A stretch of 64,000 nucleotides of DNA from Chiloscyllium plagiosum (lineage: Eukaryota), in assembly GCF_004010195.1 (NCBI RefSeq), contig NC_057730.1, positions 22,945,258 to 23,009,257 on the forward strand, in the 5' to 3' direction. The notes below the pieces were generated by a model. That model worked only from the letters and a program-made list of their open reading frames with translations. It ran no database searches and had not been told where the DNA came from. Made by a program: the position numbers and the translations under genes. Shown in pieces: positions 1,745 to 63,194 of the stretch (position 1 is the stretch's first letter; each line of letters begins with the position of its first letter).

Positions 1745-3530
1745 TTAAAAAAATCACACAACACCAGGTCATAGTCTAACAGGTTTATTTGGAAGCACTA
1801 GCTTTCAGAGAGCTATTCCTCCATCAGGTGGTTGCTCAGGTGGTTGTGGAGTATGAGATCGTAAGACACAGAATTTATAGCAAAAGTTTGCAGTGTGATG
1901 TAACTGAAATTATATATTGAAAAAGATCTGGATTGTTTGTTAAGTCTCTCATCTTTTAGAATTACCATGTTTGTTTCAGTTCTTTCATATGTAAATTCCA
2001 GAACTATTTTTAAAATTTACATTCTCAAGTGAACTTTAACAACATGTCAGCCCAGACAATGCAGTGAAGGTGTGAGGTGTCCAATGTGTGGCAGTCTATG
2101 TCCCAATGTTCAGACTGAATAGATTTCTAAAAAAGGGATTTACAGAATCTTAAATGGATTCATGCAGTTTTTGAGCAAAATAAAATTTAATTCTGCAAGT
2201 ACAAATTCCCCCCACAAATTTATATGTGTGCATGTATGTGCCTATGTTTGTGGGGGAATAAGTGTCTGTGAGAGAGTGTGTCTATGTGTGAGTGTGAGTG
2301 TAAAGGGATATAAGTCTGTGAGATGGTGCGTGTGTGGGTGTGTATGTGTAAGTGCATGAGAGAGAGCTTGTCCCAAGGTGGATTTCGGGACAGCCAACAG
2401 CGGAAAGTGGCCGAGCAGAGGCTGATGACCAAGTTTGGTACCCAGCCTCAACTGGGACCTTGCGTTCATGTCACTCTACAGGTGACCCATTGCACTACAC
2501 ACTCTCTCTCTCTGTCTCTCTCTCTCACACACACACTCCTACAGACCCATACACTCACACAGACCCTCTCTCATACACAAGTTCTCTCTCATATGCTCAC
2601 ACATAGACACCCACACCCTCTCACAGACTTATACCCTTTTCCATACACACTCTCTCACAGACACGCATATGCCTCCCCCCCCCCCATACACACCCACTTC
2701 TGGATGTAGGTTTGCTCGCTGAGCTAGAAGGTTAATTTCCAGACATTTCGTCACCCTACTAGATGACATCTTCAGTGGGCCTCCAGGCGAAGCATTGTTG
2801 ATAATTCCTGCTCTCTATTTATATGTTTGGGTTTCTTTGGGTTGGTGATGTAATTTCCTGGGGTGCTTCACCTGGAGGCCCACTGAAGATGTTACTTAGT
2901 AGAGTGACAAAACATCTGGAAATCAACCTTCCAGCTCAGCAAGCAAACCTACATCCAGAACCTCAATCTGAGCTACAAATCTTCTCAAAACTCGCTAACG
3001 TTCCCACTTGCGTGTGCACACAAAATGTGGGGTGAATTTATACTTGCAGAATTACATTTTACTTTGCTCAAAAACTGCATGAATCCATGTAAGATTCTGT
3101 AAATCCCTGCTTTAGAAATAGAATCAGTCTGACCACTTAGGCACAGACAGCCTCACACGGGGCACCTCATACCTTCAAATGCATTATCTGAGCCAACATG
3201 GCACCTATTGGTACAGTTCACTTGAAAATGTAACTTTTAAAAAAAGTTCTGAGATTTACATATGAAAGAACTGAAATCAACATGGTCATTCTAAAAGACA
3301 AGAGATGAAACAAACAAACTAGATCTTTTTCAATATATAATTTCAGTTACATCACTCTGTAAACTTTTGCTATAAATTCTGTGTCTTACGATCTTATACT
3401 CCACAACCACCTGATAAAGGAGCAGTGCTTCAAAAGCTAGTGCTTCCAAATAAACCTGTTGGACTATAACCTGGTGTGCGATTTTAACTTTGTCCACCCC
3501 AGTCCAACAAACAGCACCTCCAAACCATGA
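1745..3530. mobile_element. Penelope-like element family B, inverted (fold-back) structure with GT/CA microsatellite arms
   Basis: 1745-2360 is the reverse complement of ~2495-2700 plus ~3010-3500. The plus-strand fragment 2370-2480 encodes a GIY-YIG C-terminus-like peptide (QGGFRDSQQRKVAEQRLMTKFGT). Degenerate hammerhead cores lie at ~1795-1830 (-) and ~3408-3442 (+). Confidence 0.75.
2700..3002. mobile_element. Penelope-like family C fold-back unit nested in the family B element
   Basis: Inverted arms ~2703-2790 and ~2870-2956. Candidate TSD CCCACTT at 2693-2699 and 3003-3009. Minus-strand hammerhead-like core at 2739-2778: CCA-CTGAAGA-TGTCATCTAGTAGGGTGAC-GAAATGTC-TGG. Confidence 0.7.
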
Positions 3531-3609
3531 CATATATCTTAGTGTAACTAATGACAAAGCAAAGGTGACCATATCTTCTAGAGAGGGAAGGAAATTCCAA
3601 GACACCCAC

Positions 3610-3762
3610 CTGCTCAAGATACACATCCACACTGCCCCCTGGAATACAACTGGTGCTTACAGAGGCCACTGCCAATAATGGATGGATACGATGCCAAGCA
3701 ATCTCTGATGGTGAACCAATATTCTCAGGTGCTTCAATATGGTGATCGAAGTAAACTGCCAT
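3610..3762 (-). CDS. IFT140: IFT140 first coding exon (exon spans 3610-3789 including 5'UTR)
   Basis: ATG at 3762; [51 protein letters not shown]. Donor CAG|GTGGGT at 3610/3609 and acceptor ttttgacag| at 3790/3789. In phase with exon 79-303. Confidence 0.95.
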
Positions 3763-3923
3763 GTTAACATAGTAAACTTCTATTCAATTCTGTCAAAAGA
3801 TAATGCAATTTCAATAAAAGCCCGATCAACAATTCATTAAAAATTGTCAACTCAACTCAATAAAAAAACTGCCTGCAGTATTTTGATAATCCCTATTCAA
3901 CTTGTTGGCAATTACAATGAGGA

Positions 3924-4123
3924 GCTGAAAATGTGTTGCTGGAAAAGCGCAGCATGTCAGGCAGCATCCAAGGAGCAGGAGAATCGACGTTTCGGGCATG
4001 AGACCTCATGCCCGAAACGTTGATTCTTCTGCTCCTTGGATGCTGCCTGACCTGCTGCGCTTTTCCAGCAACACATTTTCAGCTCTGATCTCCAGCGTCT
4101 GCAGTCCTCATTTTCTCCTAGAA
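3924..4123. mobile_element. Penelope family A short fold-back insertion
   Basis: Inverted arms of the family A 3' terminus. TSD AATTACAATGAGGA at 3910-3923 and 4124-4137. Confidence 0.85.
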
Positions 4124-4536
4124 AATTACAATGAGGAACCAATTACAGCTCCAACTATCCTTAGCAGAAGTTAAAGAGAATCACATTGGCAACAACCTTG
4201 CAGCTCTAGATCTCGACTGACAAAGTTTTGGAAGTAAGGCAACAATCTTGCAACAATCATGTTGGTCAGGTTGCAATGCTGCAGGCTGAAAAGTGGGAAT
4301 GTCACTGCAGATTGTGATGGTGGGGGCATATAACTACTTTATTGAATTTTGATGATCGGGCTGGGGGGGTAGGGAATGTATTGTCATATTTTTGTGATGG
4401 ATTGGCAGATCATTTAGTGGCAGGGTAGTGGTGCACAAGTGACGGACTAGGGGCTGTTGCAATGCTTTCTTGATAGGGTGGGTCCCAGGACCTCAAACTT
4501 TATTACATTTATGACCTTTCCCAATTCTGATGATAG

Positions 4537-5384
4537 CTGAAAATGTGTTACTGGAAAAGCGCAGCAGGTCAGGCAGCATCCAAGGAGCAGGACAATCAAC
4601 GTTTCGGGAATGAGCGCTTCTTCAGGAATGAGGAAACAGTGTCCAGCAGGCTAAGATAAAAGGTAGAGAGGAGGGACTTGGGGGAAGGGCGTTGGAAATG
4701 CGATAGGTGGAAGGAGGTCAAGGTGAGGGTGATAGGCCAGAGTGGGGGCGGAGAGGTCAGGAAGAAGATTGCAGGTTAGGAAGGCGGTGCTGAGTTCGAG
4801 GGATTTGACTGAGACAAGGTGGGGGGAGGCGAAATGAGGAAACTGGAGAAATCTGAGTTCAGCCTTTTGTGGTTGGAGGGTTCCTAGGCGGAAGATGAGG
4901 CGCTCTTCCTCCAACCGTCGTGTTGCTATGGTCTGGCGATGGAGAAGTCCAAGGACCTGCATGTCCTCGGTGGAGTGGGAGGGGGAGTTGAAGTGTTGAG
5001 CCANNNNNNNNNNNNNNNNNNNNNNNNNNNNNNNNNNNNNNNNNNNNNNNNNNNNNNNNNNNNNNNNNNNNNNNNNNNNNNNNNNNNNNNNNNNNNNNNN
5101 NNNNNNNNNNNNNNNNNNNNNNNNNNNNNNNNNNNNNNNNNNNNNNNNNNNNNNNNNNNNNNNNNNNNNNNNNNNNNNNNNNNNNNNNNNNNNNNNNNNN
5201 NNNNNNNNNNNNNNNNNNNNNNNNNNNNNNNNNNNNNNNNNNNNNNNNNNNNNNNNNNNNNNNNNNNNNNNNNNNNNNNNNNNNNNNNNNNNNNNNNNNN
5301 NNNNNNNNNNNNNNNNNNNNNNNNATTTTCCAGCAACACATTTTCAGCTCTGATCTCCAGCATCTGCAGTCCTCACTTTCTCCT
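4537..5384. mobile_element. Penelope family A insertion with GIY-YIG C-terminus; contains assembly gap 5004-5324
   Basis: Minus-strand peptide QVLGLLHRQTIATRRLEEERLIFRLGTLQPQ. Both ends are element 3' termini facing outward. TSD CAATTCTGATGATAG at 4522-4536 and 5385-5399. Confidence 0.85.
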
Positions 5385-5689
5385 CAATTCTGATGATAGA
5401 CTTCGGGTCGATGGTCTGTTTTTATGCTCCACAGATGCTGCCTCACTTGCTGAGTAATTCCAGCATTTTCTGTTTTTCTTTCAGATTTGCACCATCTCCG
5501 CTGTCAGCATTTTAGTGATAGAGTGGGAAGAGGGTGTTGTGTTTCGGGTGCTACCTGTTTTCAGGTTGGTCCGAGAGATTTTTCCGATTGATGAACCCGA
5601 ATATCCGGCCCTGACGTTGAAATTTTCCAATCCAACTGGCACATCACACGACTCAGCTAGTGCTGTGCCCCCAGGTTGCGGCCTACCTG

Positions 5690-6002
5690 TAACTACAACT
5701 CCGCATTATCCACTTGAAAAAAATAGTGCCTCCCCTCGTCTCAAGTGTGACAGAAAGCGGCATTACCTGGAGAACAACCGGTGTTGGCCGTCCTCCTGCA
5801 CGTTTTTCCTGCTGTTAGCTTCGATTCAACAGTGCTTTCAGCGTACTTGCAGTTGCCGTAACAACCGGCGAGAAGCGGAAGCGACGCCTCGCGATGCCGT
5901 GAATTGCCGACCATAGTCGAGAATATACGAGGGTTAACCCGTCTAAATGGCATTGTGGGAAATGTAGTTTTTCCCGTCATCAGCGTGTCGGCGGCGCATG
6001 CT
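5690..6002. promoter_or_regulatory. CpG-rich bidirectional promoter of IFT140 (-) and DECR2 (+)
   Basis: CpG-dense. ZNF143/Staf-type motifs ACTACAACTCCGCATT (~5692, +) and ACTACATTTCCCACAATGCC (~5949-5968, -). RFX X-box-like GTTGCCGTAACAAC at 5852-5865. NRF1-like GCGCATGC near 5994. Confidence 0.8.
5767..5850 (-). other. IFT140: Putative non-coding exon 1 of IFT140 (5' boundary approximate)
   Basis: Strong minus-strand donor CAG|GTAATG at 5767/5766 directly beside the X-box; the 3789 acceptor needs an upstream exon. Confidence 0.6.
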
Positions 6003-6038
6003 TATTGTTGTCTGGGGTTTTGGATGGTGTTGGTTGTG

Positions 6039-6168
6039 AGGGGAAAGTGAGAACTGCAGATGCTGGACCTTAGAGTCGAGAGTGTGTTGCTGCAAAAGCA
6101 CAACAGGTCAGGGCAGCATCCGAGGGATAGGAAAATCGACGTTTCGGGCGTAAGCCTTTCATCAGGAA
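6039..6168 (-). mobile_element. Penelope family A 3' terminal fragment between promoter and DECR2 first coding exon
   Basis: Matches the family A terminus (GAAAGTGAGAACTGCAGATGCTGG...GACGTTTCGGGC...TCATCAGGAAT). Possible TSD TGGTTGTG at 6031-6038 and 6169-6176. Confidence 0.8.
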
Positions 6169-6431
6169 TGGTTGTGGTTGATGAGAGCCGTCTCTGTGTT
6201 GGTGCGTTGTTCTGGGATTTTGATCTTGTGACCAGGGCTCTGAAAAGGAATTTGACTCCGTGTATCTGATTCTGTTTTAGGATCTTCGTTAAGAGTCCGA
6301 AGGGCTCACTGTCCGGAAATTCTCTCTCCAGTTTGTGAGAAGTCTATCTTTGGAGTCTGTGTAGGAGCTTCTTCCCCCTTCCCACAAAAAGAGATAGGAC
6401 GAAGATTTAAACCGATTCCTGAGAAACAATC

Positions 6432-6520
6432 ATGTCTGCGACGAGCAGCAGCCCTCAGGAAGTGGACACAGATGATTGTTTGTTGAACTATTCCTATATA
6501 TTCAGAGATGACATGCTGAA
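6432..6520 (+). CDS. DECR2: DECR2 (peroxisomal 2,4-dienoyl-CoA reductase) coding exon 1
   Basis: ATG at 6432; MSATSSSPQEVDTDDCLLNYSYIFRDDML. Donor AA|GTAAGC. Probable upstream acceptor ttttag| at 6280. Confidence 0.93.
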
Positions 6521-6757
6521 GTAAGCCGTTTTATATTTTCAGTGGGTAATTTGGGGCTAGTGACAGTACGTTATATTTAAAGGACTTTTTTTTAGTAAAT
6601 GTACCTGGGAACAGAGATTTTCGTACACTTCATTTACCCTAGGAGGATTTTCTCTTGCACCCGACAGAACTGTTGTGATGGGAGGTGTCATTGTACTTCC
6701 TGATTTTAATAAAGTAATACATAGCTATTGATGTTTACCTCTTGCATATCTGAATAG

Positions 6758-6826
6758 GGACAAAGTGGCATTCATCACCGGAGGAGGGTCTGGCATTGGA
6801 TTCCGAATTGCAGAGATACTGATGAG
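6758..6826 (+). CDS. DECR2: DECR2 coding exon 2 (SDR TGxxxGIG motif)
   Basis: [22 protein letters not shown]; AG/GT boundaries, phase 2-2. Confidence 0.97.
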
Positions 6827-7184
6827 GTAGGGCAGCAGCTGCAGAATGAGAAGTCGCAAGTACTTGCACAAAACTTCATGAGCTTCTGGAAACTGTATAC
6901 GTGATAAGGATCTATTTATTTAACAAAAAGTGCACCATTTTGCAATGGATAGTTAAAAAAGGAGCAATACAGCCTTTGAGCTGTTCCACCATTCAGTTAG
7001 GCCATAGCTATTCTATTATCAGTGAGCAACTTCCTCTATGATTCTACGATCAAGGATGTTGAAACCAAATTATTTCCCAATATACAAGATTTATGGGCTT
7101 TTTTAAAAAAAACAACCTGTTCAGGAATGTTATGATACTTCTAAAGCAGGAGGGACTTGAAACTAGACCTCCTGGCTTCAGAGG

Positions 7185-7684
7185 AGAAAGTGAGGACTGC
7201 AGATGCTGGAGATCAGAGCTGAAAATGTGTTGCTGGAAAAGCGCAGCAGGTCAGGCAGCATCCAAGGAGCAGNNNNNNNNNNNNNNNNNNNNNNNNNNNN
7301 NNNNNNNNNNNNNNNNNNNNNNNNNNNNNNNNNNNNNNNNNNNNNNNNNNNNNNNNNNNNNNNNNNNGAGAGGTCTAGGAAGGGGAGGGAGGAGTCTGAG
7401 ACGGTCCAGGTGAATTTGAGGTCGGGTTGGAAGGTGTTGGTAAAGTGGATGAACTGTTCAACCTCCTCGTGGGAGCACGAGGCAGTGCCGATACAGTCAT
7501 CGATGTAGCGGAGGAAAAGGTGGGGGGTGGTGCCAGTGTAGCTGTGGAAGATGGACTGTTCCACATATCCTATGCAGAAGCAGGCATAGCTGGGGCCCAT
7601 GCGGGTGCCCATGGCTGCTACTTTGGTTTGGAGGAAGTGGGAGGATTGGAAAGAGAAGTTGTTCAGGGTGAGTTGTTCAGGGTG
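7185..7684 (-). mobile_element. Penelope family A copy with RT fragment; contains gap 7273-7367
   Basis: Minus-strand peptide AMGTRMGPSYAC...LRYIDD...LPFLDL (Penelope-type RT). TSD CCTCCTGGCTTCAGAGG at 7168-7184 and 7685-7701. Confidence 0.88.
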
Positions 7685-8100
7685 CCTCCTGGCTTCAGAG
7701 GCAGGGATGTTATCACTGTCACAAGAGCCTGCCCATGATTTACAGGCCATTCAATCAGTAGCTGACAATTTTGAATATTGGTAGAAAGAAGGAGACTTGC
7801 TTTCTGTGTAGCAACCAAGAGATAAGGCCTTTTAGCCAGCTGTGTATATGATTTATGCACATTAAGAACATAATAAATACGAGTAAGAACAGAAATGCTG
7901 GAGAAACAGCAGGTCTAGCAGCATCTTTTGCTATGTTGGTCGAATATAACATTTTCAGAAAGATATGGACCTGCTTGGTTATTCCACGATCAAGTGTGTG
8001 AAGTTATGGTGAATCCCCAACTGAGATCAGTGCAAACTGGACATCAATTTTTGACCCTTTTATTTTGTAACAAAGTTTTAATTATTGTTTATTTTTACAG

Positions 8101-8152
8101 GCATGGATGTCAGACTGTTATTGCGAGCAGGAGCATGGAGCGAGTACAAGCA
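8101..8152 (+). CDS. DECR2: DECR2 coding exon 3
   Basis: HGCQTVIASRSMERVQA; tttttacag| and |GTAGGT. Confidence 0.95.
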
Positions 8153-9474
8153 GTAGGTAGCCCAGACCTTGCGTTGATAATTAAAAGCAGAGTGAAGTAA
8201 TATATTTAAGTGATGTTCTGTTTTAAATTATGTTAATCCCCACAATATTATTTTTCAGCCTCTGTTGCCCTAATGCTCATCCTAAAAGGCAGATATTAAA
8301 ATGGGAAGAAGATGAAGTCTGATATTGTATATTTTAATCCAGGACTATTGCTGTCTGCATATTACTATTGTCAGTTATGAGTTTTGTTTCCTCATTTCAT
8401 CTTTTTTAGTTTAAAAAAAACCCAGCTGAAAGCATCTTATTTACAATTCATTTTGTGAGTACAGTGCATTCCTGTGCTTTGCTTGTGAAGATTGAGGTGT
8501 GAACTAATCAAAATGTTTAAAAGAATAAAATTATTCAACTTCCGCTAGTGGAGAGATCAGAAACAGGATGTATGTTATACTTAAGCCATTCAGGAACAAT
8601 GCCAGGAAACAATTCTTCATAGATATTAGAAATCTGGAAGTCCCTCTCCAAATGCTGGGCCAATTGGCACATTCAGTACTGAGACTGAGATTTTTATTTG
8701 ATGAAGATTTGAAGGAATATTGAGCAAACGCAAATAAATTGTACTGATGTGAAAATCAGCCTTAAAATAATTAAACAGTTGAGCGGCTGGAGGGGCTGAT
8801 CAGCCTCCGGTTCATATGGAGGTACAGCAGTTTCTAAAACTAAGGGACAGTCTCTAATTTAGTTACGAGTTTCAGTGAAATGAAAAATAAATCGATGAGA
8901 AGTACTGGAACTTTGATACCTTTTGTGACATTACAGCAAAATTATTGTGTCACGGGATGATATAGCTGGAGGTTATTTCTGTTTCGAAACAAAATTAAGA
9001 TTCAGTCCATTATTAGTGTTAGTGAGGTTCAGTCCACTACTATTCTCAAAGATCATTAAATTTCACTAAATTATTATAATTCTTCTGAGCTTATTTGTTT
9101 GAGATGGCTGCCTCCATAAGTTGTTTCATTCAGTATGAGGTGAAACTATTCCAATTCATATGATTAAGGTAAAGTCACCATAGTCTCAAAGAACTATAGA
9201 GCTTCTGTTTCTTTAGAGAGAGGGAGAGAGAGATGACTGGTGGTGAGTTTAACCTGAGAGTCAGCAGGCGAGGGATGAGGTTGAGAAGGCAGGACTTTCA
9301 TGGTGACCTCGGCCGAATTGTGTATTTGAAATATTGAGACTTATTGAGTGTTAATCTGATAAAACCACAGCAGCCCATGAATTCTTGCATATCCAAACTA
9401 TTCACACAGAAAATAGCTTTGAAGCCTGTATGTGCTGCATTCAGCAATAACTGATATATCATTCTTTAATCCAG

Positions 9475-9610
9475 TCTGCAAAGAAACTCTCAGCAGCCAC
9501 TGGACAACGATGTCTGCCAGTCTCATTGTATGTCAGGCAACCTGTTACCATCAATGCTGCTGTGGAGGAGACGCTACAGAAATTTGCAAAAATTGATATC
9601 TTGATTAATG
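9475..9610 (+). CDS. DECR2: DECR2 coding exon 4
   Basis: SAKKLSAATGQRCLPVSLYVRQPVTINAAVEETLQKFAKIDILIN; ccag| and G|GTAATT. Confidence 0.95.
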
Positions 9611-9830
9611 GTAATTTCTCAACACTTCTTCACCTTTCTTGTTACTTACAAGTGGAGGCTGTTGATCCACAGAACCCTGTTGGTCCATAGGGCACCCAGT
9701 GCCAACTCCATGTATAATCACTGCTTTAAATGTCATTCTTATAACTATCCAGTGTACAGGAAAGTTTGTTAAAAGCTGGTTCTGCTGTGAAAGTGTTGTT
9801 TACTTGTTAGTTTGTCCTGTCTTTTTCCAG

Positions 9831-9955
9831 GTGCTGCAGGTAACTTCCTATGTCCTGCCAGTGGCCTGTCATTCAATGCTTTCAAAACTGTCCTGGAGAT
9901 AGATACAATTGGAACCTTTAACACCAGCAAAGTCTTGTACCAGAAGTGGTTCAAG
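9831..9955 (+). CDS. DECR2: DECR2 coding exon 5
   Basis: [41 protein letters not shown]; tttttccag| and |GTGAGT. Confidence 0.97.
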
Positions 9956-10786
9956 GTGAGTTAATTGTACACTGGTGAAAGAACTGGATTTTACTTGTCT
10001 AGTTAATTTTAAATTTCCCATTTCTTTAACTGAGAGTCTGGGTAGCAATCTCCTGGTCCTATCAGAGGAGACAAATATCTCTTGCATCTCTGGGAAATTG
10101 CAAGTCCTGTTAATTTAAATCAATCTTGGAGAGTTCTTGTGATCACTCACCTGCAAGCCACTCATAGCAGGAAAAGCCCAACTTGTTTTTCTTTTCTTTT
10201 ATCCTGAAAAAGGGCAGCAATAGGAGTGCTACTTTTGGGCTTGTGTCTCTCTATATCCATGAGAGAAAGTAAACGATATTCGTGCTCGGCCTTCCAGTGC
10301 ATACAACTGTCCAAGCTCATGGCTAAAGAGTAATCACTGAGCAAGTGCATCAGTCAAAATGGTCGTGTTTCAGCAGAGGATGAGATGTAGAGAAGTCATG
10401 ATGAAAAAGAAGTGAGAAATAAATAATTTTGTCTTTTCTTGTGTGAAAGCAAACCCTCTATCCCTCACATCTCTAAGGCATGTATTTGAAATTCACTGGG
10501 ACCAGTGAGGACTAATGGAATGCATATCTATTCTGGCCGAGGGTTCAACAGAAAATAGTTAATTGGCTTCTTTTGAGATGTTGCACACTCCTCTCCTAAA
10601 TTTCATATCTACGTCAGAGACAATGAGAGTAGTGTATAGATCAAGAAACATTAAAAAACTTAATTCATCACATTCAAACTAGATGTCATCTGAAAACTGA
10701 CATTGAAAGTGATATGGAATTTAATTGTGAAATCATGACATCTGTGGAACACTGTATTTTGGTTTAGTAATCTTCTGTTGCTGTAG

Positions 10787-11899: not shown

Positions 11900-13020
11900 C
11901 CCATTAGCAACTTCCGAGTAGCTTCCTTCAAATGTCCTACACTCACTCTAGCTGGTCTTTCTTCTTAGATACCTATCGAGGCTGTGCTGTTGTTTCTATA
12001 TTCTTGCCAATTTACTTTCATAATCCATTTTTTACAGTCTGGCCATCTGTTACTGGTTCCTCAAAGAATTCAGTCTTCTGACCTATCACAAGTTTTTGCT
12101 GCTGTTATATCTTAGTTTTTGATTGAAACTTTCCTTGACCACTTTGTTAACCATGGACAGTTCATCTTTCTCATCAAGTCCTTCTTTTTGACTGGAATAA
12201 ATACATTTTTGCTGAACGTTATGAAATATCTGCTTAAATGTCTGCTTATTTACTGACTTTCTCTTTGTCCCAGCCTGCTTTAGACTGTCTTCATACCTCT
12301 GTAATTGTCCTTATTTAAGTTGAGGAAACTGGTTTGCGATCTGATTTGCTCTCCCTCAGATTTTACCAGGCTGCGATTGCAACCCCCCAAAAGATCCTTA
12401 GCATCTCTCCTTAATCCCACCTCTTTACACATTACTAGACCTAAAATAGTCTGTTCTCAGCTAAATTGTGCAATCTATTGCTCCAAGAAACAATCCCTGA
12501 TGGATTCTACAAAATTGTCTTCCAACTATTGCTATTCTGATTTGTCCAGTCAATGTACAGATTAGAATCATCCATGACAATTGTGGTGCCCTTAAATGCC
12601 CTCCATTATTTCCAGGATTCCTATTTTGCCCTATAACAAGATAAGCCTTTGGGAACCTATAGATGACTTCATTCATGTAGGAGAAAGTGAGGACTGCAGA
12701 CGCTGGCGATCAGAGTCAACAGTATAGTGCTGAAAAAACACAGCAGGTCAGGCATTATCCGAGCAGCAGCAGAATCAATGTTTCGGGCATAAGCCCTTCA
12801 TCAGGAAAGAAGGGTTTATGCCCGAAATGTTGATTCTCCTACTCGGTTGCTGCCTGACCTGCTCTCGACTATGACTTCATTCATGACAAATTTTCCTTTG
12901 TTATTCCTCCTAGCCATCCAAATTGATTCCATGTCACAATCTATTGTGCCTATGTTGCTATTCACCACTACGCTGAAAGTGGTTCCCCACCTTTTTTCGT
13001 TTTGCCTCTTCTTTTCTTTC
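11900..13020 (-). mobile_element. Old decayed CR1-like LINE fragment, interrupted by a Penelope unit
   Basis: Diverged similarity to the ORF2 N-terminal region of the other CR1 copies in the window; boundaries approximate. Confidence 0.5.
12678..12870. mobile_element. Penelope family A short fold-back insertion
   Basis: Complete 3' terminus plus inverted partial copy. TSD ATGACTTCATTCATG at 12663-12677 and 12871-12885. Confidence 0.85.
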
Positions 13021-14267: not shown

Positions 14268-15053
14268 CTAGGAGAAAGTGAGGACTGCAGATGCTGGAGA
14301 TCAGAGCTGAAAAATGTGTTGCTGGAAAAGCGCAGCAGGTCAGGCAGCATCCAAGGAGCAGGAGAATCGATGTTTCGGGCATAGGCCCTTCAGGAATGAG
14401 GAAGGTGTGCCAAGCAGGCTAAGATAAAAGGTAGGGAGGAGGGACTTGGGGGAGGGGTGTTGGGAATGCGATAGTTGGAAGGAGGTTAAGGTGAGGGTGA
14501 TAGGCCAGAGTGGGGGTGGGGGCGGAGAGGTCAGGAAGAAGATTGCAGGTTAGGAAGGCGGTGCTGAGTTCGAGGGATTTGAGTGAGACAAGGTGGGGGG
14601 AGGGGAAATGAGGAAACTGGAGAAATCTGAGTTCATCCTTTTGTGGTTGGAGGGTTCCTAGGCGGAAGATGAGGCGCTCTTCCTCCAACCGTCGTGTTGC
14701 TATCGTCTGGCGATGGAGGAGTCCAAGGACCTGCACGTCCTCAGTGGAGTGGGAGGGGGAGTTGAAGTGTTGAGCCACGGGGTGGTTGGGTTGATGTGGC
14801 TTCCTCTATATTGGGGAGACAGGCCACCTACTTGCGGAACGTTTCAGAGAACACCTCTGGGACACCCGCACCAACCAACCTATCGATCTTAAGTTGGCAC
14901 CACTACTATTAACCTCCTTCCACCTATCACATTCGCAACACCCCTCCCCCAATTCCCTCCTCCCTACCTTTTTACCTTAGCTTGCTTGATAAGGGCTTAT
15001 GTCCGAAACGTCGATTCTCCGGTTCATTGGATGCTGCCTGACCTGCTGCGCTT
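14268..15053. mobile_element. Composite Penelope family A insertion (inversion plus captured flank)
   Basis: Minus copy 14270-14793, plus-strand GIY-YIG piece LYIGETGHLLAERFREH (~14795-14880), and plus 3'UTR 14911-15053. TSD TGAGTAAAGTCAG at 14255-14267 and 15054-15066. Confidence 0.85.
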
Positions 15054-23444: not shown

Positions 23445-23648
23445 ACCGGTGTTGAACTGGGGTGGACAAAGTTTTTTTAAAAATTACACAACACCCGGTT
23501 ATAGTCCAACAGGTGTTTTTTAGGAAGCACGAGCTTTCGGAGCGCTGCTCTACACAACCACCTGATGAAGGAGCAGCGCTCCGAATGCTCGTGCTTCCAA
23601 ATAAACCTATTGGACTATAACCAGGTATTGTATAACTTTTAACTTCAT
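23445..23648. mobile_element. Penelope family B short palindromic unit
   Basis: Inverted arms TTATAGTCCAACAGG...GAGCGCTGCTC and GAGCAGCGCTC...TTGGACTATAA. Hammerhead-like CTGATGA core at 23562, with GAAA mutated to GAAT. Confidence 0.8.
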
Positions 23649-23759: not shown

Positions 23760-24370
23760 TCGGTGGCCACGATACATGCGCTCGCGCATGCTCTATTGCG
23801 GCGGTTGGAGGGTGCCGGCAGCTGAGCGGTTGCTATGTAGCGTCTCCAGGGCGGCGCGGGCGTGATGGAAGGAGGATAACGTCATAGCTGCTGATCCGAG
23901 TGATGGCGGCGCCGAGAGACTGGGGACAAATGTGAGGGAACACAGGGAGCGAGAACTACCGGGGCCCGAAAGCGAGAAAACCCAGAGAGAAAGATCGAGC
24001 TCCACCAGGAGCTGATAGTTTGATATTCGGGAAAGGGGTCGAGGAGTGGAGTGGGGTGGGGGAGAGTGGTGAGTTTTAAGTGGGTGTGGGGAGAATGGAG
24101 CTGACCGATCCCCAGTGAACGGAATCGCAGCCGTTCATGGAGCCTACCCCGGGGCCGGAGGGGGCCGGAAGCCCGGGGGTAGGGTTAGAGCCCCCCGCGC
24201 CCGGGAACCCAGGATTTGAGTCGGAGTGCGAGAGGCTGCGAGTCGTCTTTGATTTGTTTGACCTGGCCGGGGAAGGGTTGATCCGGCTGGAAGATTTTTG
24301 TCAGATCGCCAGCAGCTACGGCGCGGAGCAGGTAGGAAGAACGGGCACAGCCAGGAGGATGCAGTCATCC
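23760..24370 (+). promoter_or_regulatory. CpG island / promoter and first exon of RAB11FIP3
   Basis: GC- and CpG-rich. NRF1-like CGCGCATGC near 23783, X-box half-site GTTGCTATG at 23829-23837, YY1-like GATGGCGGC near 23902. Confidence 0.75.
24137..24331 (+). CDS. RAB11FIP3: RAB11 family-interacting protein 3, coding exon 1 (first EF-hand)
   Basis: MEPTPGPEG...ERLRVVFDLFDLAGEGLIRLEDFCQIASSYGAEQ; donor CAG|GTAGGA. The YGAEQ exon end and the position downstream of DECR2 favour FIP3 over FIP4. Start codon uncertain. Confidence 0.88.
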
Positions 24371-26831
24371 CTGTCGGGGTTTAACTGTTTGTCCCAGTAT
24401 CAGTTTTGCGAAGTGGCAATTTTTTTTTTTAGAAAGCACTGTGACTGAGTCACTGCTATGGATAAGTGGCCCCTCGGTGGGGGTTTATTCCATAGTGGTA
24501 CTGTGTTCAGGATTTTAAATAGGACAGCGGCTTAAATTTTAATTTTTTCTTTGAAAATACTTTGCAATTTGGTGCTTTGCTTATCAAAGAAAAGCTAAAC
24601 CAAATCTATAGTCGCCCAGTTTGCACGATTTAAGGGTCATTCAAGTGCAGCTTCATAATCAATTGAGTGTTCCCAACGCAGATAATAGGACAGACTTTCT
24701 TATTAACGTAGAAGATATTAAGGAGTAATAATTTGAGGATCGCAAATATGGTCATGAATAGCGGTGTTTTCATATTTATTTTTGACTTTTGTGCACACCA
24801 CCTGCATCTGGTAAATAACCGTCTACATTCAAATGTAGGTTGGAACATGGATGTGCTGGATGATGTGGGGTGGCAAAAATGGAAATTCACTGTGCACCAG
24901 GGCCGCTAAGAATTGAACCTGGTGCTGATAAACATGCTATATCTGGCCCTAATTGGAAAGCTAAGCACAATTTTGTTGGGAAGTAAACAACTTTCATCTA
25001 TATGGAGTTACAAAGGATACAGGACTGATACTTTGCAGGATTCTCATTGAGTCACTGGGATTGTGATTGTAGCAGTAAGTTTCTATTCCTTGGAAATTAG
25101 ATTGGCAATTGCTTATGGTTCTGAAAAGTCCTGTTGGACTCAAACCGTTAACTCTCCTTGCATACCTGAGTTTCTGCAGCATTCTTCTTGGTATTTGGCT
25201 GATGTACCTCGATTGCTTTGATGTAATATTGTATTTGTATGGACCTTGTCTGTGAGACTTTCCCTGAATATTACCACCTTGCATAGATCTGACCTGATTT
25301 TTCTATTCAATCCAGTATCATGTGGAGTACTAGAAAGTTTTTTTTTGTGTGGAAAAGAATTTCTCCTGTTTGTTTATTCTTGGTTTTAGTCATGGCTTCT
25401 TGTTTTGTTCATTTAGTCTCAACTTGCAAGTTGTGCATGTGCTCTGAAGAAAGTGTAAGTCAATTAGGGTGACATGCAGTAGTAATTGAATCTGCTGAGC
25501 ACATTACTTGAAACTGCGCTCCTTGGTGTTAGCTGGCTCCTAATTTTTGCAGCCATTCATTTTGATACCTAAGGGAATGAATTGGTATTAGTGTGATGAG
25601 TGGATAGGGTATCTCAAACATGAGACAAACCAGTTGTGTCCCAGTGTTTGTTGGATATGTTAGTTTGACAAATTTTTAAAAAAGAAACCGTAACAGGTGA
25701 TTATTGTCCAAGTAGCCATTTTGATAGGGTATGCAACTGAAAGCTGATCTTGAATCAACAGAACAGTGAGGTTAAGAACAGCCTGGTTCATTTTAGTTTA
25801 ATGGTCATAACCAAAGCTGAAGGCATTGAGAAAAATGAAGGTGCTGCGTTATGAAGTCAGAGGAGACTATTAACTTTGATTATTACTTTATGTATCATGG
25901 TAGCGAAAAGGTTCAAAATAATGGGAAATTATGGACACAATTGGAAGGCAGTGTATTCAGGACCCAATCCTTATTCAAATGTTTAAAATTTTCTTGGCAT
26001 TTAACAATCCCTGAAATCTTAAATTTTTTTGGATACAAGATATACTTGTATCTGTAAACATGTAGGAATTTGGAGTATGAGGAGGAAGCAGCTTTCCATC
26101 AAGCTTGCCCACCCTTAGCTAAATAATACTGAATGTCTGACTCTGGTAAACATTTCAGTGTTTAATTCTCAGATTAGGGTATTACGGTAGAAAGTTTCCT
26201 GCCAGTGCACCATTCTGCATGGGTCATATGTCCATATAGTTTTTGTTGTAGGAGCATTAGGGCAGAACTGTACACAATTACACAAACCTACTTTTGGTGC
26301 AAAACAATTTGAGAAGCGCTTAGCCAAAATGAGAGTGAATGGTATTTGCTACTTTAGTACAATTCATTCAAAATGCCTGAATCAGTCTGAAGGAGTTAGG
26401 ATGTATTTGAGAGAACACTGAAGGGAAAAAGAATAAAATGGAGAATTGCACAATGGTGGGACAGAGAAACTGTTAAGTCTGGCAACATCTGTAGAGAGAA
26501 AAAACAATTAACATTTTGCTTCTGTCCCTTGGACTCTCTCCACCTACCATTTACCCCATCGCCATCCTTTCTTGTGCATAAAAACAACTTTTTCCATCTA
26601 CCCTCAGTTCTGATGAAGGGTAACCTGAACTTAGAAACATTTTCTATCTACAGATGCTGTAAGACCTGCTGAGTTTTTCTGGCAATTTGTTTGGTTTGTT
26701 TTTGGATTTCCAGCATCTGAAGTTTTTTTTGGTTTTTAGTTCTGATGTGGAGGTGCTGGTGTTGGACTGGGGTGGACAAAGTTTAAAAATCATACCATAC
26801 CAGGTTATAATCCAACAGGTTTATTTGGAAG

Positions 26832-26866
26832 TACAAGCTTTCGGAGTCCTGCTCCTTCATCAGGTA
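26832..26866 (-). ncRNA. Minimal type I hammerhead ribozyme core (family B, intact)
   Basis: Minus strand reads TAC-CTGATGA-A-GGAG-CAGGA-CTCC-GAAA-GC-TT-GTA: stem I TAC/GTA, stem II GGAG/CTCC, palindromic AGCT stem III. Confidence 0.65.
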
Positions 26867-27004
26867 GCTGTGGAGTAGGATCAGAAGACACAGAATTTAT
26901 AGCAAAAGATCATAATGTCATGCGTGCAACTGATACAATCTATTGAACAAACCTAGATTGCTGTTAAGTCTTTCATCTTTTAGAATGGGTGCAGGTTTCA
27001 GCTC

Positions 27005-28285
27005 CCTAAAGCGCTCTGCTAGGAGGCGCCCAGTCTCCCCAATGTAGAGGAGACCGCATCGGGAGCAACGGATACAATAAATGATATTAGTGGATGTGCA
27101 AGTAAAACTTCTTTGGATGTGGAAGGCTCCTTTAGGGCCTTGGATAGAGGTGAGGGAGGAGGTGTGGGCGCAGGTTTTACAGTTCCTGCGGTGGTAGGGG
27201 AAAGTGCCAGGATGGGTGGGTGGGTTGTAGGGGGGCGTGGACCTGACCAGGTAGTCACGGAGGGAATGGTCTTTGCGGAAAGGGGTGGGGAGGGAAATAT
27301 ATCCCTGGTGGTGGGGTCTTTTTGGAGGTGGCGGAAATGTCGGTGGATGATTTATGCGAAGGTTGGTAGGGTGGAAGGTGAGCACCAGGGGCGTTCTGTC
27401 CCTGTTACGGTTGGAGGGGTGGGGTCTGAGGGCGGAGGTGCGGGATGTAGACGAGATGTGTTGGAGGGCATCTTTAACCACGTGGCAAGGGAAATTGCGG
27501 TCTCTGAAGGAGGCCATCTGGTGTGTTCTGTGGTGGAACTGGTCCTCCTGGGAGCAGATCTGGCGGAGGAATTGGGAATACGGGATGGCATTTTTGCAAA
27601 AGGTAGGGTGGGAAGAGGTGTAATCCAGGTAGCTGTGGGAGTTGGGGGTTTGTAAAAAAATGTCAGTGTCAAGTCGGTTGTCATTAATGGAGATGGAGAG
27701 GTCCAGGAAGAGGAGGGAGGTGTCAGAGATGGTCCAGGTAAATGCGCTTTAGGGAACATCTCCGGGACACCCACACCAATCAACCACACCGCCCCATGGC
27801 CCAACATTTCAACTCCCCCTCTCACTCTGCCGAGGAAATGGAGGTCCTGGGCCTCCTTGACCGCCGCTCCCTCACCACCAGACTCCTGGAGGAAGAACGC
27901 CTCATCTTCCACCTCGGAACACTTCAACCCCAGGGCATTAATGTGGACTTCAACAGTTTCCTCATTTCCCCTTCCCCCACCTCACCCTAGATCTAAACTT
28001 CCAGCTCAGCACTGTCCCCATGACTTGTCTGGACTTGTCCTACCTGCCTATCTCCTTTTCCACCTATCCTCTCCTCCCTGACCTATTACCTTCATCCCCT
28101 CCCCCACTCACCCATTGGACTCTATGCTACTTTCTCCCCACCCCCACCCTCCTCTAGCTTATCTCTCCACGCTCCAGGCTCACTGCCTTTATTCCTGATG
28201 AAGGGCTTTGGCCTGAAACGTCGATTTCGAAGCTCCTTGGATGCTGCCTGAACTGCTGTGCTCTTCCAGCACCACTAATCCAGAA
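27005..28285. mobile_element. Penelope family A copy with 5' inversion (RT thumb, linker and GIY-YIG)
   Basis: Minus segment encodes ...CKTC...IIYCIRCSRCGLLYIGETGRLLAERFRE; plus segment restarts at RFREHLRD and runs to the 3' end. TSD GCAGGTTTCAGCTC at 26991-27004 and 28286-28299. Confidence 0.9.
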
Positions 28286-29932: not shown

Positions 29933-29944
29933 AAAAAAAGCCAG

Positions 29945-32040: not shown

Positions 32041-32044
32041 AAAA

Positions 32045-48279: not shown

Positions 48280-48490
48280 GCGCAGCAGGTCAGGCAGCAT
48301 CTAGGGAACAGGAGAATCGACGTTTCGGGCATTAGCCCTTCTTCAGGAATGAGGAAAAGCAGAATTCCTGAAGAAGGGCTAATGCCCGAAACGTCGATTC
48401 TCCTGTTCCCTAGATGCTGCCTGACCTGCTGCGCTTTTCCAGCAACACATTTCCATCTCTGATCTCCAGCATCTGCAGACCTCACTTTCT
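48280..48490. mobile_element. Penelope family A fold-back unit with near-perfect ~70 bp inverted arms
   Basis: Arms ~48279-48349 and ~48365-48435. TSD CAGCAAATCTAGATAA at 48264-48279 and 48491-48506. Confidence 0.9.
48364..48399 (+). ncRNA. Minimal type I hammerhead ribozyme core (family A, intact, sense to RAB11FIP3 intron 1)
   Basis: ATTC-CTGAAGA-A-GGGC-TAAT-GCCC-GAAA-CG-TC-GATT. A mirror copy lies on the minus strand at ~48315-48350. Confidence 0.65.
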
Positions 48491-54817: not shown

Positions 54818-55631
54818 TGGTTTTAGTAGGCACCCTCTTCTCTGCTATAATTAGTTTGCAATCATCCTGGAGGGAAGATAATAACTGTAGACTCCTTTCT
54901 GTACTCCAAATTATTCATTTTATAAAACTGTTGTCACTTGCCACTTTGCCCTTTCTCCATCTTTACATGGAGCTTGTTGAAGTTAGATTAGATTATGCCT
55001 AACTGGCTCCAACTTTCTATCACCTTTTTTCCTTAAGCTATACTACCATAACTTACTACACAAGATCACCTTGCTTACAGGACCTACCTTCTGCACCTTC
55101 CATTCCATTCCCATTAATTTAGTAACTAGTCCACTTTCATGAGAAGTGAAATTGAGTGCTTCTCTTTATTCAAGTTGTTTTTGCTTTTGTTTGAAAGGTA
55201 ACCCATTCTCAATCTATCCAGTCTTCACTTAAAACACATTGCTTCCCATCACCGCACTTTATTTTCCACCGCTCCTAAAGCATTCAAAACTTATAATCAA
55301 AATTGAGACTTACACCTTAGCTCTGTTTTTCAACTTTTTGACCTCTGTCATCGGGGAGAAATGTCAACATTTTCTTGTTGCCTTACATGTGCATCCCACA
55401 CCATTACTTCAATAGACCTTCTAAGATCAGCCCTTGACTCCCTCTTACTCATGCTTCCCTTTTGTTTTTGGCAACCATATTCAGAGATTGGGACCGTTGC
55501 TTCCGAGGTACACATGATATCCAGCTTTACATTCGCTTAAATACCTCAACATGTCCACTGTATCTATGCTATTGAAATGCTTGACATTTAGTTTGGGTGA
55601 GTTTTCCCATAAAGTTGTACTTAACCACCCC

Positions 55632-57204: not shown

Positions 57205-58165
57205 TGGATGTACCTACTAAAAGTGCAAGACTTTACCTACTCTTGGGGAATGAGGTGTCAGTGGGGGAGCACTTTGGGGCCAGTGACCAGAATTCTATTA
57301 GTTTTAAAATTGTGATGGAAAAGGATAGACCAGATCTAAAAGTTGGAGTTCTAAACTGGAGGAAGGCCAATTTTGATGGTATGAGGCAAGAGCTTTCAAA
57401 AGCTGATTGGGGCAGGAGTTCGCAAGTAATAGAAAATGGGGAGCTGTCAGAAATGAGATGATGAGAGTCCAAAAACAATATATTCCTATTAGGGTGAAAG
57501 GAAGGGCTAGTAGGTGTAGGGAATGCTGGATGACTAGAGAAATTGAGGGTTTGATTAACAAAAAGAAGGAAACATATGTCGGGTATAGACAGGATAAATC
57601 GAGTGAATTCTCAGAGTATACTGGCCACTATTCCACTGTTGGAATATCGCATAAATTTTGGTCTCCTTCCTATCAGAGCAATGTTGTGAAACTTGAAAGG
57701 GTTCCAAAAAGATTTCCTAGGATGTTGGCAGAGTTTGAGGATTTGAGCTACAGGGAGAGGTTGAATAGGTTGGGGCTATTTTCCCTGGAGCGTCGGAGGC
57801 TGAGGGGTGACCTATATAGAGGTTTACAAAATTGAGGGACATGGATTGGGTAAATAGGCAAAGTCTTTTCCCTGGGGTGGGGAATCTAGAACTAGAGGGC
57901 ATAGGTTTAGGGTGAGAGGGGAAAGATATAAAAGAGACCGAGGGGGCAACATTTTCACACAGAGGGTGGTACGTGTATGGAATGAGCTGCCAGAGGAAGT
58001 GGTGGAGGCTGGTACAATTGCAATATTTAAGAGGATTTGGATGCATTTATAAATAGGGAGGGTTTGGAGGGCTATGGGCCAGGTGCTGATAGGTGGGACG
58101 AGATTGGGTTGGGATATCTGGTCGGCATGGACGAGTTGGACCGAAGGGTCTGTTTCCATGCCGTA
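57205..58165 (+). mobile_element. CR1/HER1-like LINE with large internal deletion
   Basis: Endonuclease end (EHFGASDQNSISFKIVME) jumps near 57620 directly to the C-terminal region (FWSPSYQ...), skipping the RT. Confidence 0.85.
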
Positions 58166-58529
58166 CATCAGTCTGACTGGTGCAGCTTGATGAGGACCAG
58201 ACTGCATATAAAATCTTCTGTGTAGACATGGGCTGGTCTATTCTAGATCACCAGGATACTGAAATTCTAGCGGAGATGATTTTAAAGGCACATTTTTAGG
58301 GTTTTGAAGGCATGGCAGTGATTGGGTGTATTTGTGGAGGGACTGGAACACATCCTCCAGCAGGCTCAATCCATCAATCAAGACTAATGCTTGTCACACT
58401 CGTCCAGATTCTATACTGTAGAATGTTTTGAAGCGCAGCAGCAGTAGAGGGAAAATAGATTTGAAAGAAGATCCTGTCCGTTTGTGGAAACTAATGTGGG
58501 TGGCTCAAGTCTTCTAAAAGTTGAAGGTG

Positions 58530-61446: not shown

Positions 61447-61540
61447 GCAAAGGAATTAACCAAGTACCTCGATCCTGCTGGTCTGGGGGTCATTGCATTT
61501 GATGATTTCTGTCGAGGAATTGCTGCTATTAAAAATGGAG
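61447..61540 (+). CDS. RAB11FIP3: RAB11FIP3 coding exon 2 (second EF-hand)
   Basis: AKELTKYLDPAGLGVIAFDDFCRGIAAIKNG. Acceptor ttttgtcccttcag| and donor G|GTATGG; phase 0, matching exon 1. Intron 1 spans 24332-61446. Confidence 0.93.
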
Positions 61541-61769
61541 GTATGGCAAAGTAATATGCAGGTTTACTTGTTTTGAGTTGGTTTATATGATATGGCTTTG
61601 TTTTATTCTGAATAACTACTTTACTTCAAAAAATAAACTGGAAGGATTCTGTTTAATAGTGAATTAACCATAAATACTGCATAAGAATTTAACTGTTTTT
61701 GATGTGCATTATTTGACAAACCCATGACTTGTTTCCCTTAATTGAATTAAAGTTCTAACTGTTTGCTTA

Positions 61770-62105
61770 AAATCATGAGGGGCATGGATAGGATAAATAG
61801 AAAAGGTCTTTTCCCTGGGTTGAGTCCAGAACTAGAGTGCTTAGGTTTACAGTGACAGGAGAAAGGTCCTTTTTTTTTAAATCTAAGGGAATTTTTTTTT
61901 CACGCAGAGGGTGGTGCATATGTGGAATGAACTGCTTGAGTTAGTGGTGGAGGCTGGTACAATTACAAAGACATCTGGATGGGTATATGAATAGGAAACG
62001 TTTAGAGGGATATGGGCCAAGTACTGGCAAATAGGACTAGTTTAGGTTAGGATATTTGGTCGGCATGGATGAGTTGGACCATACGGTCTGTTTAATTGCT
62101 GTACG
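61770..62105 (+). mobile_element. CR1-like LINE, short 3' fragment
   Basis: AAAATCATGAGGGGCATGGATAGG through to the CR1 tail. Confidence 0.82.
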
Positions 62106-62527
62106 TCTGTCTGTCTGTCTGTCGTCTCACTCTGTCTTCCCAATTCAGTTTATCGGTTACGCGCACACGTCCCTGGCTCCTTAAAGCCAATCAAAGCCTT
62201 CATCCTTTTGTTTTTTTACCTAAAAAAAAAAAAACCAAAAAGGCCTTAGTTTGAGCATACTTTACACCCTCCAGGTATGTTTTGGAGTTCGATTATAAAT
62301 AACCTCTACAACTCAAAAATAAATCTGTTATCAGACAACAATGTTTGTCGTACTTGTATGTTAAGAGCATCTTTAGGGATGCTGTAAAGAATTTGGAGTT
62401 GAGCCTATTTAAGCGTTGTTTTAATGGTGAGTCGTAATCTACAGCTAAGTAAGACCTGTATTTCTTTTACATTCAAACAAGTCTGAGAAAAGGCAAGAAC
62501 TGCTCCAGTATGATTATCAGTATGTAT

Positions 62528-62711
62528 AGGTAAAAACAATGACTGCAGATGCTGGAAACCAGAGTCTAGATTAGAGTGGTGCTGGAAAAGCACAACAGGT
62601 CAGGCAGGATTCCTGATGAAGGGCTTTTGCCTGAAATGTCTTTTTTTTTCCCAGCTCCTCGGATGCTGCCTGACCTGCTGTGCTTTTCCAGCACCACTCT
62701 AATCTAGACTC
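62528..62711. mobile_element. Penelope family A-related fold-back insertion
   Basis: Inverted arms around a CTGATGA...GAAATGTC core. TSD TTATCAGT(A/G)TGTAT at 62514-62527 and 62712-62725. Confidence 0.8.
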
Positions 62712-63194
62712 TTATCAGTGTGTATGACTGTTTCAGATATGCCTGCCAACCATGCAGGAGTGTTGTACCCTGGCTTGAAACTTGGTAATATTTAGGTATC
62801 ACTGAATCTTCTGGAGGACTTTTTGCAGCAGTTTCCTGGACCAACAAACAAACCTCTTGTGGACCAGGTGGTCATCAAAGATGTTCAATGTATTGTTGCA
62901 AGATAGAAATTCTTGCCATTTTTTCAAGATAGAATACACGTGGGTCTGCACATGCATGTATTCCTCATCGTCCTTCTCAATCTATGTCTATCTATTTGCA
63001 GCTTTCTGACGGTTGTAAGCCAATGTTTGATTAGGGAACTACAAGCTTCAACTACTTTTGCCTAACTTAAGTCACTAGACTCTAAGTGTTAAACTTTCTC
63101 CCCATAGTTGCTGCCAGACCTGCTGAGTTTCACCCAGATTTGTTTTTTGCCTAATTTCATGCTCCCTTGTCTGGGTCATCACCTTTATTGAGAA

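What the first reader, a model, noticed from the sequence alone, without database searches (positions are those of the whole stretch)
1745..62725. Three unrelated Penelope-like families each carry a minimal hammerhead with a loop-less palindromic stem III
Seen: family A reads ATTC-CUGA(A/U)GA-A-GGGC-NNNN-GCCC-GAAACGUC-GAUU (e.g. 48364-48399 +, ~6134-6168 -). Family B reads CAC-CUGAUGA-A-GGAGC-AGC-GCUCC-GAAAGCUH-GUG (variants at 23559-23593 +, 26832-26866 -). Family C reads CCA-CUGAAGA-U-GUCA...UGAC-GAAA(C/U)GUC-UGG (2739-2778 -). Flanks and stems differ, but all keep the catalytic core, a short stem I, one extra base before stem II, and a stem III reduced to a self-complementary tetramer (ACGU or AGCU) with no loop. 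Established: Penelope-like elements carry minimal type I hammerheads thought to cleave as dimers. Inference: these cores can only fold by pairing two copies through the palindrome, so co-oriented copies in one long pre-mRNA (e.g. RAB11FIP3 intron 1) could in principle cleave it.
Basis: partly seen in the sequence, partly recalled or inferred. Interest (0 to 1): 0.7.

Follow-up and report, generated by a model that had tools for sequence, protein, structure and literature searches.

The report
Penelope retrotransposon hammerhead fossils
These are real but mostly decayed copies of a known miniature hammerhead RNA motif, predicted to cut only as a pair, that marks the ends of three families of Penelope-type jumping genes with over 100,000 copies in this genome; they likely do not cut the host gene's RNA.

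Summary
The motifs are real. They sit in the end repeats (pLTRs) of three Penelope-like retroelement (PLE) families, each linked to its own GIY-YIG endonuclease. Exact patterns give 86,254, 16,485 and 1,304 genome copies, with 0 in controls. This is the published minimal hammerhead of metazoan PLEs (Cervera & de la Peña 2014), including the loop-less palindrome, the extra base and the dimer model. The scan noted it before in this genome and others.

Cores stay fixed while stems covary between families. Within families the cores decay like neighbouring bases.

Host cleavage is not supported. The one intact sense copy in RAB11FIP-type intron 1 (48364-48399) is predicted to be locked in a 73-bp hairpin with its own antisense twin. 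In three giant genes, intact copies lie 15 sense to 14 antisense.

Side result: family A copies start at the ribozyme's first bases (90 of 271), not at the cut site (4 of 271). The RNA was likely copied uncut from a start site there.

The parts
48364..48399 (+). Family A minimal hammerhead, intact core, ACGU palindrome, GUC triplet; sense to RAB11FIP-type intron 1; element starts at the first base of stem I
48315..48350 (-). Family A minimal hammerhead, intact; inverted twin of 48364-48399. Arms 48278-48350 and 48364-48436 form a perfect 73-bp hairpin
26832..26866 (-). Family B minimal hammerhead, intact core, AGCU palindrome, CUU triplet, 4-bp stem II; antisense to the host gene
2739..2778 (-). 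Family C hammerhead, core kept, palindrome decayed to AUGU; the AUG of a short open frame overlaps A9/extra base/G10.1
2880..2919 (+). Family C inverted partner copy, broken (G12>A, ACAU)
28191..28226 (+). Family A copy, near-intact (G10.1.U11.1 wobble from CpG decay), sense in intron 1
6134..6169 (-).
23559..23593 (+).
1796..1830 (-). Family B copy, A9>G and stem II broken
3408..3442 (+). Family B copy, G8>A and G12>A, broken
4594..4629 (-). Family A copy, stem II broken, directly downstream of the endonuclease C-terminus
12773..12808 (-). Family A copy, palindrome broken (ACAU)
14365..14400 (-). Family A copy, 3-nt deletion in core and ACAU (extent approximate)
14981..15016 (+). Family A copy, CUGANGA box broken
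62609..62644 (+). Family A copy in intron 2: G.U at 10.1-11.1, AUGU, stem I 3' strand lost
26606..26645 (+). Decayed copy of a further family (stem I GUU/AAC type)
4654..5003 (-). C-terminal piece of the family A PLE protein (endonuclease end), upstream of the 4625 hammerhead
7368..7750 (-). PLE reverse transcriptase fragment (RVT_1, E 0.0065, below the Pfam cut-off)
26921..27748 (-). Family A-type PLE fragment: Cys linker and GIY-YIG motif (E 0.012, below the Pfam cut-off)
24093..24332 (+). First coding exon (EF-hand) of the RAB11FIP-type host gene; GT donor at 24333
61447..61540 (+). Likely exon 2 (94 nt, AG/GT bounded) of the RAB11FIP-type gene; intron 1 = 24333-61446

Best explanation
The motifs are minimal type I hammerheads in the end repeats of three Penelope-like retrotransposon families, kept by selection on the active source elements and likely inert as scattered genomic copies. 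Shown: each family's hammerhead lies downstream of its own GIY-YIG endonuclease sequence and upstream of a tail with two preferred 3' ends; between families the core is constant and the stems covary; within families the copies decay evenly. Inferred from published work: in the source element's tandem transcript two hammerheads would pair through the ACGU/AGCU palindrome and cut slowly, likely with help from the element's protein. Inferred here: most copies in the window are short end-pieces, often with an inverted twin that would fold the motif into a long hairpin, so the host pre-mRNA is likely not cut to a degree that selection sees.
For: Linkage to PLE proteins: family A endonuclease end about 30 nt upstream of the motif. 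Family B reverse transcriptase, Cys linker and GIY-YIG 740-980 nt upstream. Family C GIY-YIG about 340-420 nt upstream.

Two-step 3' tails at about +80-95 and +115-126 in all three families.

Seven family consensus sequences keep GAAA, the extra base and G10.1-C11.1 (7 of 7), CUGANGA (6 of 7) and a perfect palindrome (6 of 7), with changed but paired stems I and II. The scan pattern fixed some core letters, so part of this is by construction.

Within-family mismatch rates, core versus tail: 3.1% versus 3.6% at A/T columns (23/741, 69/1920; p=0.64) and 7.2% versus 6.2% at G/C columns (25/349, 115/1861; p=0.47).

Orientation in giant-gene introns: 15 sense and 14 antisense intact copies; all tail-anchored copies 155 sense and 167 antisense. 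The hairpin at 48278-48436 removes stem II. PMC4209133: monomer inactive, dimer weak. PMC11167929: no cleavage without protein, not needed for insertion in vitro.
Against: Before variable columns were removed, non-CpG core positions differed less from the reference than flanks (45/1050 versus 492/5616, p=2e-7). I attribute this to subfamily differences in the flanks, but the filter (second allele at 15% or more; 2 of 44 core and 19 of 157 tail columns dropped) was my choice.

The orientation test is weak: the 95% interval for the sense share is 0.33-0.71, it covers three genes only, and the stretches are assumed intronic. No cleavage was measured. A reverse transcriptase was not seen for family C in what I fetched.
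Confidence: 0.88

Rival explanations
1. Co-oriented copies in one long pre-mRNA pair through the palindrome and cut host transcripts such as RAB11FIP-type intron 1 at a level that matters.
For: One intact (48364) and one near-intact (28191) sense copy with ACGU lie in intron 1. A partner needs only the palindrome, triplet and stem I strand (established double-hammerhead geometry, recalled). A fast engineered hammerhead in an intron lowers zebrafish mRNA up to 20-fold (PMC11856399, abstract). Tandem retrozymes are depleted from Xenopus introns (preprint 10.64898/2026.07.22.740005, passage).
Against: The 73-bp antisense arm is transcribed first and is predicted to sequester the copy (-167 kcal/mol, P(stem II)=0.0). 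The 28191 copy's stem II also has P about 0 in a 300-nt context. The partners are 20 kb apart and the palindrome adds only about 3-4 kcal/mol. There is no sense depletion. Natural minimal dimers are weak even when adjacent (PMC4209133).
Confidence: 0.05
2. The motif is kept in the source elements mainly for a job other than cutting the template, such as marking the RNA start or a protein-binding fold; family A RNA would begin at stem I and be reverse-transcribed uncut.
For: Family A 5' ends: 90 of 271 at -8..0 from C3 (27 at -4), 4 of 271 at the cut site +/-1. Family B: 14 of 85 versus 1 of 85. Of the 90, 33 have an inverted copy upstream and 46 of the other 57 have unshared flanks. The base before ATTC is G in 4,544 versus A/T in 2,972 copies (60% of the non-parent bases versus 25% expected). 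TCATTCC and TTATTCC fit the initiator consensus (recalled). PMC11167929: uncut RNA is the main substrate in vitro.
Against: Family C shows no such pile-up (0 of 27). In 7 of 12 non-inverted G loci the G belongs to the target duplication, so it is not shown to be cap-derived; in 5 of 30 the inverted arm supplies it. Catalytic core letters are held across families, which argues that cutting itself is selected. This reading is compatible with the best explanation.
Confidence: 0.4
3. The motifs are chance matches, or independent convergent inventions in unrelated repeats.
For: No anchored nucleotide similarity between C and A or B, and little between A and B. Rfam finds no hammerhead.
Against: Controls are 0. 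All three carriers are endonuclease-bearing PLEs with the motif at the same place. PMC8557442 (passages) states that canonical hammerheads occur throughout PLEs other than Naiad and most Chlamys.
Confidence: 0.02

Closest known systems
Minimal hammerheads (min-HHR) in pLTRs of metazoan Penelope-like elements (Cervera & de la Peña 2014, PMC4209133; read parts 1-2 of 4 of the main text, supplements not seen)
   Same: No helix III loop, palindromic 15.2-16.2, one extra base between 9 and 10.1, G10.1-C11.1, short helix I, several consensus families per genome, mostly solo copies or inverted pairs; reported for Xena, Poseidon and Neptune elements of fishes, coelacanth and Xenopus.
   Different: Stem II of family A is only 4 bp and stem I has a U.U pair. 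Copy numbers here (about 104,000 exact matches) exceed the 4,000-9,000 reported for coelacanth and Xenopus. Sharks are not named in the parts I read.
PAc Poseidon element of Anolis (PMC11167929; passages read)
   Same: Family C has no Cys linker before its endonuclease, and an AUG at the start of stem II opens a frame across the tail, as described for PAc. All three families have two preferred 3' ends.
   Different: No activity was tested here. Families A and B carry the Cys linker of Neptune-type elements, and their hammerheads open no comparable frame.
Neptune-clade PLEs (PMC8557442; passages read)
   Same: Families A and B have a CX(2-5)CxxC-type linker between reverse transcriptase and GIY-YIG, 5' truncation, inverted adjacent copies and a 30-40 nt optional tail.
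   Different: Clade placement rests on the linker only; no tree was built.
Metazoan non-LTR retrozymes (PMC7229834, search listing only; preprint 10.64898/2026.07.22.740005, part 1 of 5 and passages)
   Same: Type I hammerheads thought to act as dimers and derived from PLE ends.
   Different: Retrozymes are head-to-tail arrays. The window has no such array; its copies are solo or inverted.

Membership tests
PLE minimal hammerhead (min-HHR) | CUGANGA and GAAA boxes with NUH triplet around stem II | tested here: met
   6 of 7 consensus sequences read CUGANGA, the seventh CUGACAA (likely CpG decay)
PLE minimal hammerhead (min-HHR) | No loop 3; palindromic A15.1-N-N-U16.1 | tested here: met
   35 of 44 intact-core motifs are perfect palindromes (30 ACGU, 5 AGCU); 8 of the other 9 are CpG-decay forms
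PLE minimal hammerhead (min-HHR) | Extra base between 9 and 10.1; G10.1-C11.1 pair | tested here: met
   30 of 30 hits of a descriptor that allowed 0 or 1 extra base were read with one; 7 of 7 consensus sequences
PLE minimal hammerhead (min-HHR) | Located in the pLTR of a PLE | tested here: met
PLE minimal hammerhead (min-HHR) | Self-cleavage as dimer, none as monomer | not testable with these tools
   needs in vitro assay; folding gives only about 3-4 kcal/mol for the palindrome duplex in A and B
Endonuclease-bearing Penelope-like elements | GIY-YIG endonuclease upstream of the end repeat | tested here: met
   A; B; C. The one Pfam GIY-YIG hit (family A fragment) is below the cut-off; B and C were recognised by motif and by tblastn against it
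Endonuclease-bearing Penelope-like elements | Reverse transcriptase in the same frame as the endonuclease | tested here: inconclusive
   fragments seen for A and B; not seen for C; no full-length element fetched
Endonuclease-bearing Penelope-like elements | 5' truncation, adjacent inverted copies, optional 30-40 nt tail | tested here: met
Neptune (A, B) and Poseidon (C) clades | Cys linker present (Neptune) or absent (Poseidon) | tested here: met
   rule from PMC8557442
Neptune (A, B) and Poseidon (C) clades | Placement in a reverse transcriptase tree | not tested
   no tree built
Non-LTR retrozymes | Head-to-tail array of hammerhead-bearing units | tested here: not met
   no such array in the window; nearest same-strand intact copies are 3.7-155 kb apart in 1.46 Mb

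The most novel reading that the evidence does not exclude
In family A the 5' strand of hammerhead stem I doubles as the transcription start (an initiator-like TCATTCC). The tens of thousands of 90-130 nt solo copies are then complete cDNAs of the capped, uncut RNA 5' end, primed internally at the tail. The genome thus records that this ribozyme does not cut the template, and explains both the U.U pair in stem I and why solo minimal hammerheads are so abundant in animal genomes.
Probability: 0.4. Interest if true: 0.45.

Novelty: new member of a known kind. Interest (0 to 1): 0.17.

Why it matters
As a finding it is ordinary: the motif, its dimer logic and its carrier were published in 2014. 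Its use is as a large natural data set on an open question, what the hammerhead does for Penelope-like elements. Copy ends say that the template is mostly copied uncut and, in family A, likely starts at the ribozyme. Orientation counts say that the host tolerates intact sense copies in introns. If intronic copies did cut, about 100,000 latent cleavage sites would shape this transcriptome, but the evidence here points away from that.

Tried and rejected
Rfam scan: no hammerhead family at E<=10; only miRNA-like hits on the inverted repeats.

Tandem (retrozyme-like) arrays: none in the window. Two co-oriented family C copies 3.1 kb apart on C27 looked like a full element but hold unrelated DNA between them.

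Idea that 5' truncations mark in vivo cleavage: rejected, 4 of 271 (A), 1 of 85 (B) and 0 of 27 (C) ends at the cut site.

Untemplated cap G: the G excess is real, but the G is often part of the target duplication, so this is not shown. C at that position (the parent base) was not counted.

RNA reads: no RNA holder is listed on record for the exon-1 query. One poly(A) single-cell run (2% read) showed no place where many molecules begin or end, on window 23000-28600 (460 reads) or on an intact family A locus (2,060 reads). The second run laid nothing. A fragmented library is not expected to show such ends, so this counts neither way.

The fuzzy window scan misbehaved and was not used; the tail-anchored census in the same call was. 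A -109 peak of family B ends (13 of 85) is likely a reference boundary and was not used.

Lünse et al. (RNA Biol, dimer cleavage) is not held; I saw it only as cited in PMC6765202.

Searches for a shark report and for a start site at the hammerhead returned 0 papers. These were narrow searches, and unseen supplements of PMC4209133, PMC8557442 and the retrozyme preprint (which sampled one cartilaginous fish) may list such cases.
Full report
Setting. The window is G000:C21:22945258-23009257 of a 3.56-Gb animal genome, likely a shark (my recall of its repeats; earlier scan notes say the same; not tested). The + strand carries exons of a short-chain dehydrogenase at about 9.4-16.4 kb (Pfam adh_short; DECR2 by recall). 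It also carries an EF-hand exon ending at 24332 (an RNA-like contig from a related organism ends its match there) and a likely second exon at 61447-61540. An RBD-FIP domain lies 64 kb past the window on the same strand. This fits a RAB11FIP3/4-type gene with intron 1 at 24333-61446; the name RAB11FIP3 rests on recall of synteny.

Observation. The motifs exist at the stated places. Exact patterns give 86,254 (A), 16,485 (B) and 1,304 (C) genome matches, with 0 for reversed patterns. A census anchored on the tail behind the motif finds 26 copies in the window (17 A, 7 B, 2 C). Three pass a strict descriptor: 48364-48399(+), 48315-48350(-) and 26832-26866(-). Two are near-intact: 28191(+) with G10.1.U11.1 and 2739(-) with AUGU. 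Family A stem I has a U.U mismatch.

Carriers. Family A follows the end of a PLE endonuclease by about 30 nt, and the window holds reverse transcriptase and GIY-YIG fragments (both below Pfam cut-offs). Family B lies 740-980 nt behind a GIY-YIG motif in several of 30 long copies, with reverse transcriptase and Cys-linker sequence further up. Family C lies about 340-420 nt behind a third GIY-YIG, has no Cys linker, and its hammerhead contains an AUG that opens a frame across the tail, as PMC11167929 describes for the anole Poseidon element. By the linker rule in PMC8557442, A and B are Neptune-like and C is Poseidon-like; no tree was built. All three show two preferred 3' ends and frequent inverted twins.

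Conservation. I took 1.46 Mb not chosen for hammerheads: the window, 200 kb of flanks and 1.2 Mb inside three giant CUB-repeat genes. Clustering 357 relaxed candidates (including 30 family C loci) gave seven consensus sequences. GAAA, the extra base and G10.1-C11.1 hold in 7 of 7, and CUGANGA and a perfect palindrome in 6 of 7. Stem I (C-G/U-A, C-G/A-U/C-G, A-U/C-G/C-G, U-A/U-A/G-C and others) and stem II change but pair. Part of the core constancy is built into the scan pattern; the stems and the palindrome are not. Within families, 109 copies spanning the motif show a raw core advantage (4.3% versus 8.8%). It vanishes once columns with a second allele of 15% or more are dropped (2 of 44 core, 19 of 157 tail): 3.1 versus 3.6% at A/T and 7.2 versus 6.2% at G/C. 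CpG decay hits G12, C11.1 and the ACGU palindrome. So selection acted on source elements, and inserted copies likely drift.

Dimer logic. With four bases between A14 and the cut site, stem III cannot close in one strand, which is the stated rationale of the minimal descriptor in PMC4209133. Folding gives the palindrome duplex about 3-4 kcal/mol over two monomers for intact A and B, and no gain for the AUGU copy. Published assays found no monomer activity and low dimer activity (PMC4209133). For PAc there was no cutting without the element's protein, no need for cutting in insertion, and no RNA-seq ends at the site (PMC11167929, passages).

Host cleavage. In intron 1 the only intact sense copy sits behind a perfect 73-bp antisense arm. 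In 48250-48500 the stem II pairs have probability 0.0, against 0.8-1.0 without the arm. The near-intact partner is 20 kb upstream and is itself predicted misfolded. The next intact + strand copy lies 97 kb on, past the RBD-FIP exon. In the three giant genes, intact palindromic copies are 15 sense and 14 antisense (95% interval 0.33-0.71). All copies: A 111:117, B 33:42, C 11:8. An efficient intronic ribozyme can cut expression up to 20-fold in zebrafish (PMC11856399, abstract), so a strong effect should leave a deficit. None is seen, though a mild one is not excluded.

Copy ends. If cut RNA were the template, 5' ends would pile at the cut site. They do not: 4 of 271, 1 of 85 and 0 of 27. Family A ends pile at -8..0 from C3 (90 of 271), with mostly unshared or inverted flanks. 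Prompted by an earlier scan note, I counted the base before ATTC: G 4,544 versus A/T 2,972, 60% against 25% expected. In 30 G loci none had the parent's upstream sequence and 18 had an inverted copy. In 7 of the 12 others the G was inside a 7-12 bp target duplication (two loci are duplicates of each other). This fits a capped RNA start whose copied cap pairs with a target G, but also a target preference; it remains inference. D. virilis Penelope has an internal, initiator-type promoter in its end repeat (PMC2377424, passages).

Verdict. Real, known in kind, and likely inert at this locus. The scan has recorded the same kind of motif in this genome and others. Supplements I did not see may already list shark families.

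Noticed in passing
window 24093-24332 and 61447-61540 (+); RBD-FIP at G000:C21:23073110: RAB11FIP-type gene with EF-hand first exons, directly behind a short-chain dehydrogenase gene (exons 9451-16351); DECR2-RAB11FIP3 order by recall.
   Followed up: partly
window 26606-26720 (+) and 5382-5470 (+): Decayed copies of further hammerhead-bearing families that share family A's tail; at least seven consensus types occur in 1.46 Mb.
   Followed up: partly
G000 sample, cluster of 8 copies: One family's consensus reads CUGACAA in place of CUGANGA; likely CpG decay of CUGACGA, but a true G8 variant was not excluded.
   Followed up: no
window 3922-4119, 54645-54825, 44387-44577, 62542-62712: Inverted end-piece pairs whose junction falls inside the hammerhead, giving long perfect hairpins that score as miRNA-like in Rfam below the gathering score.
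   Followed up: partly
window 1749-3522: Two inverted family B copies about 1.2 kb long enclose an inverted family C pair, a PLE nested in a PLE.
   Followed up: no
loci L269-L281, L301, L302, L327: Solo family A inserts carry 7-13 bp target duplications in 10 of 28 non-inverted loci examined.
   Followed up: partly
window 18454-20280, 30386-31448, 57407-58180 and 32382-34207: LINE reverse transcriptase fragments: several CR1-like copies and one other type at 33676-34155 (RVT_1); family names by recall.
   Followed up: no
window 5004-5324 and 7273-7367: Both assembly gaps (N runs) lie inside family A PLE insertions.
   Followed up: no
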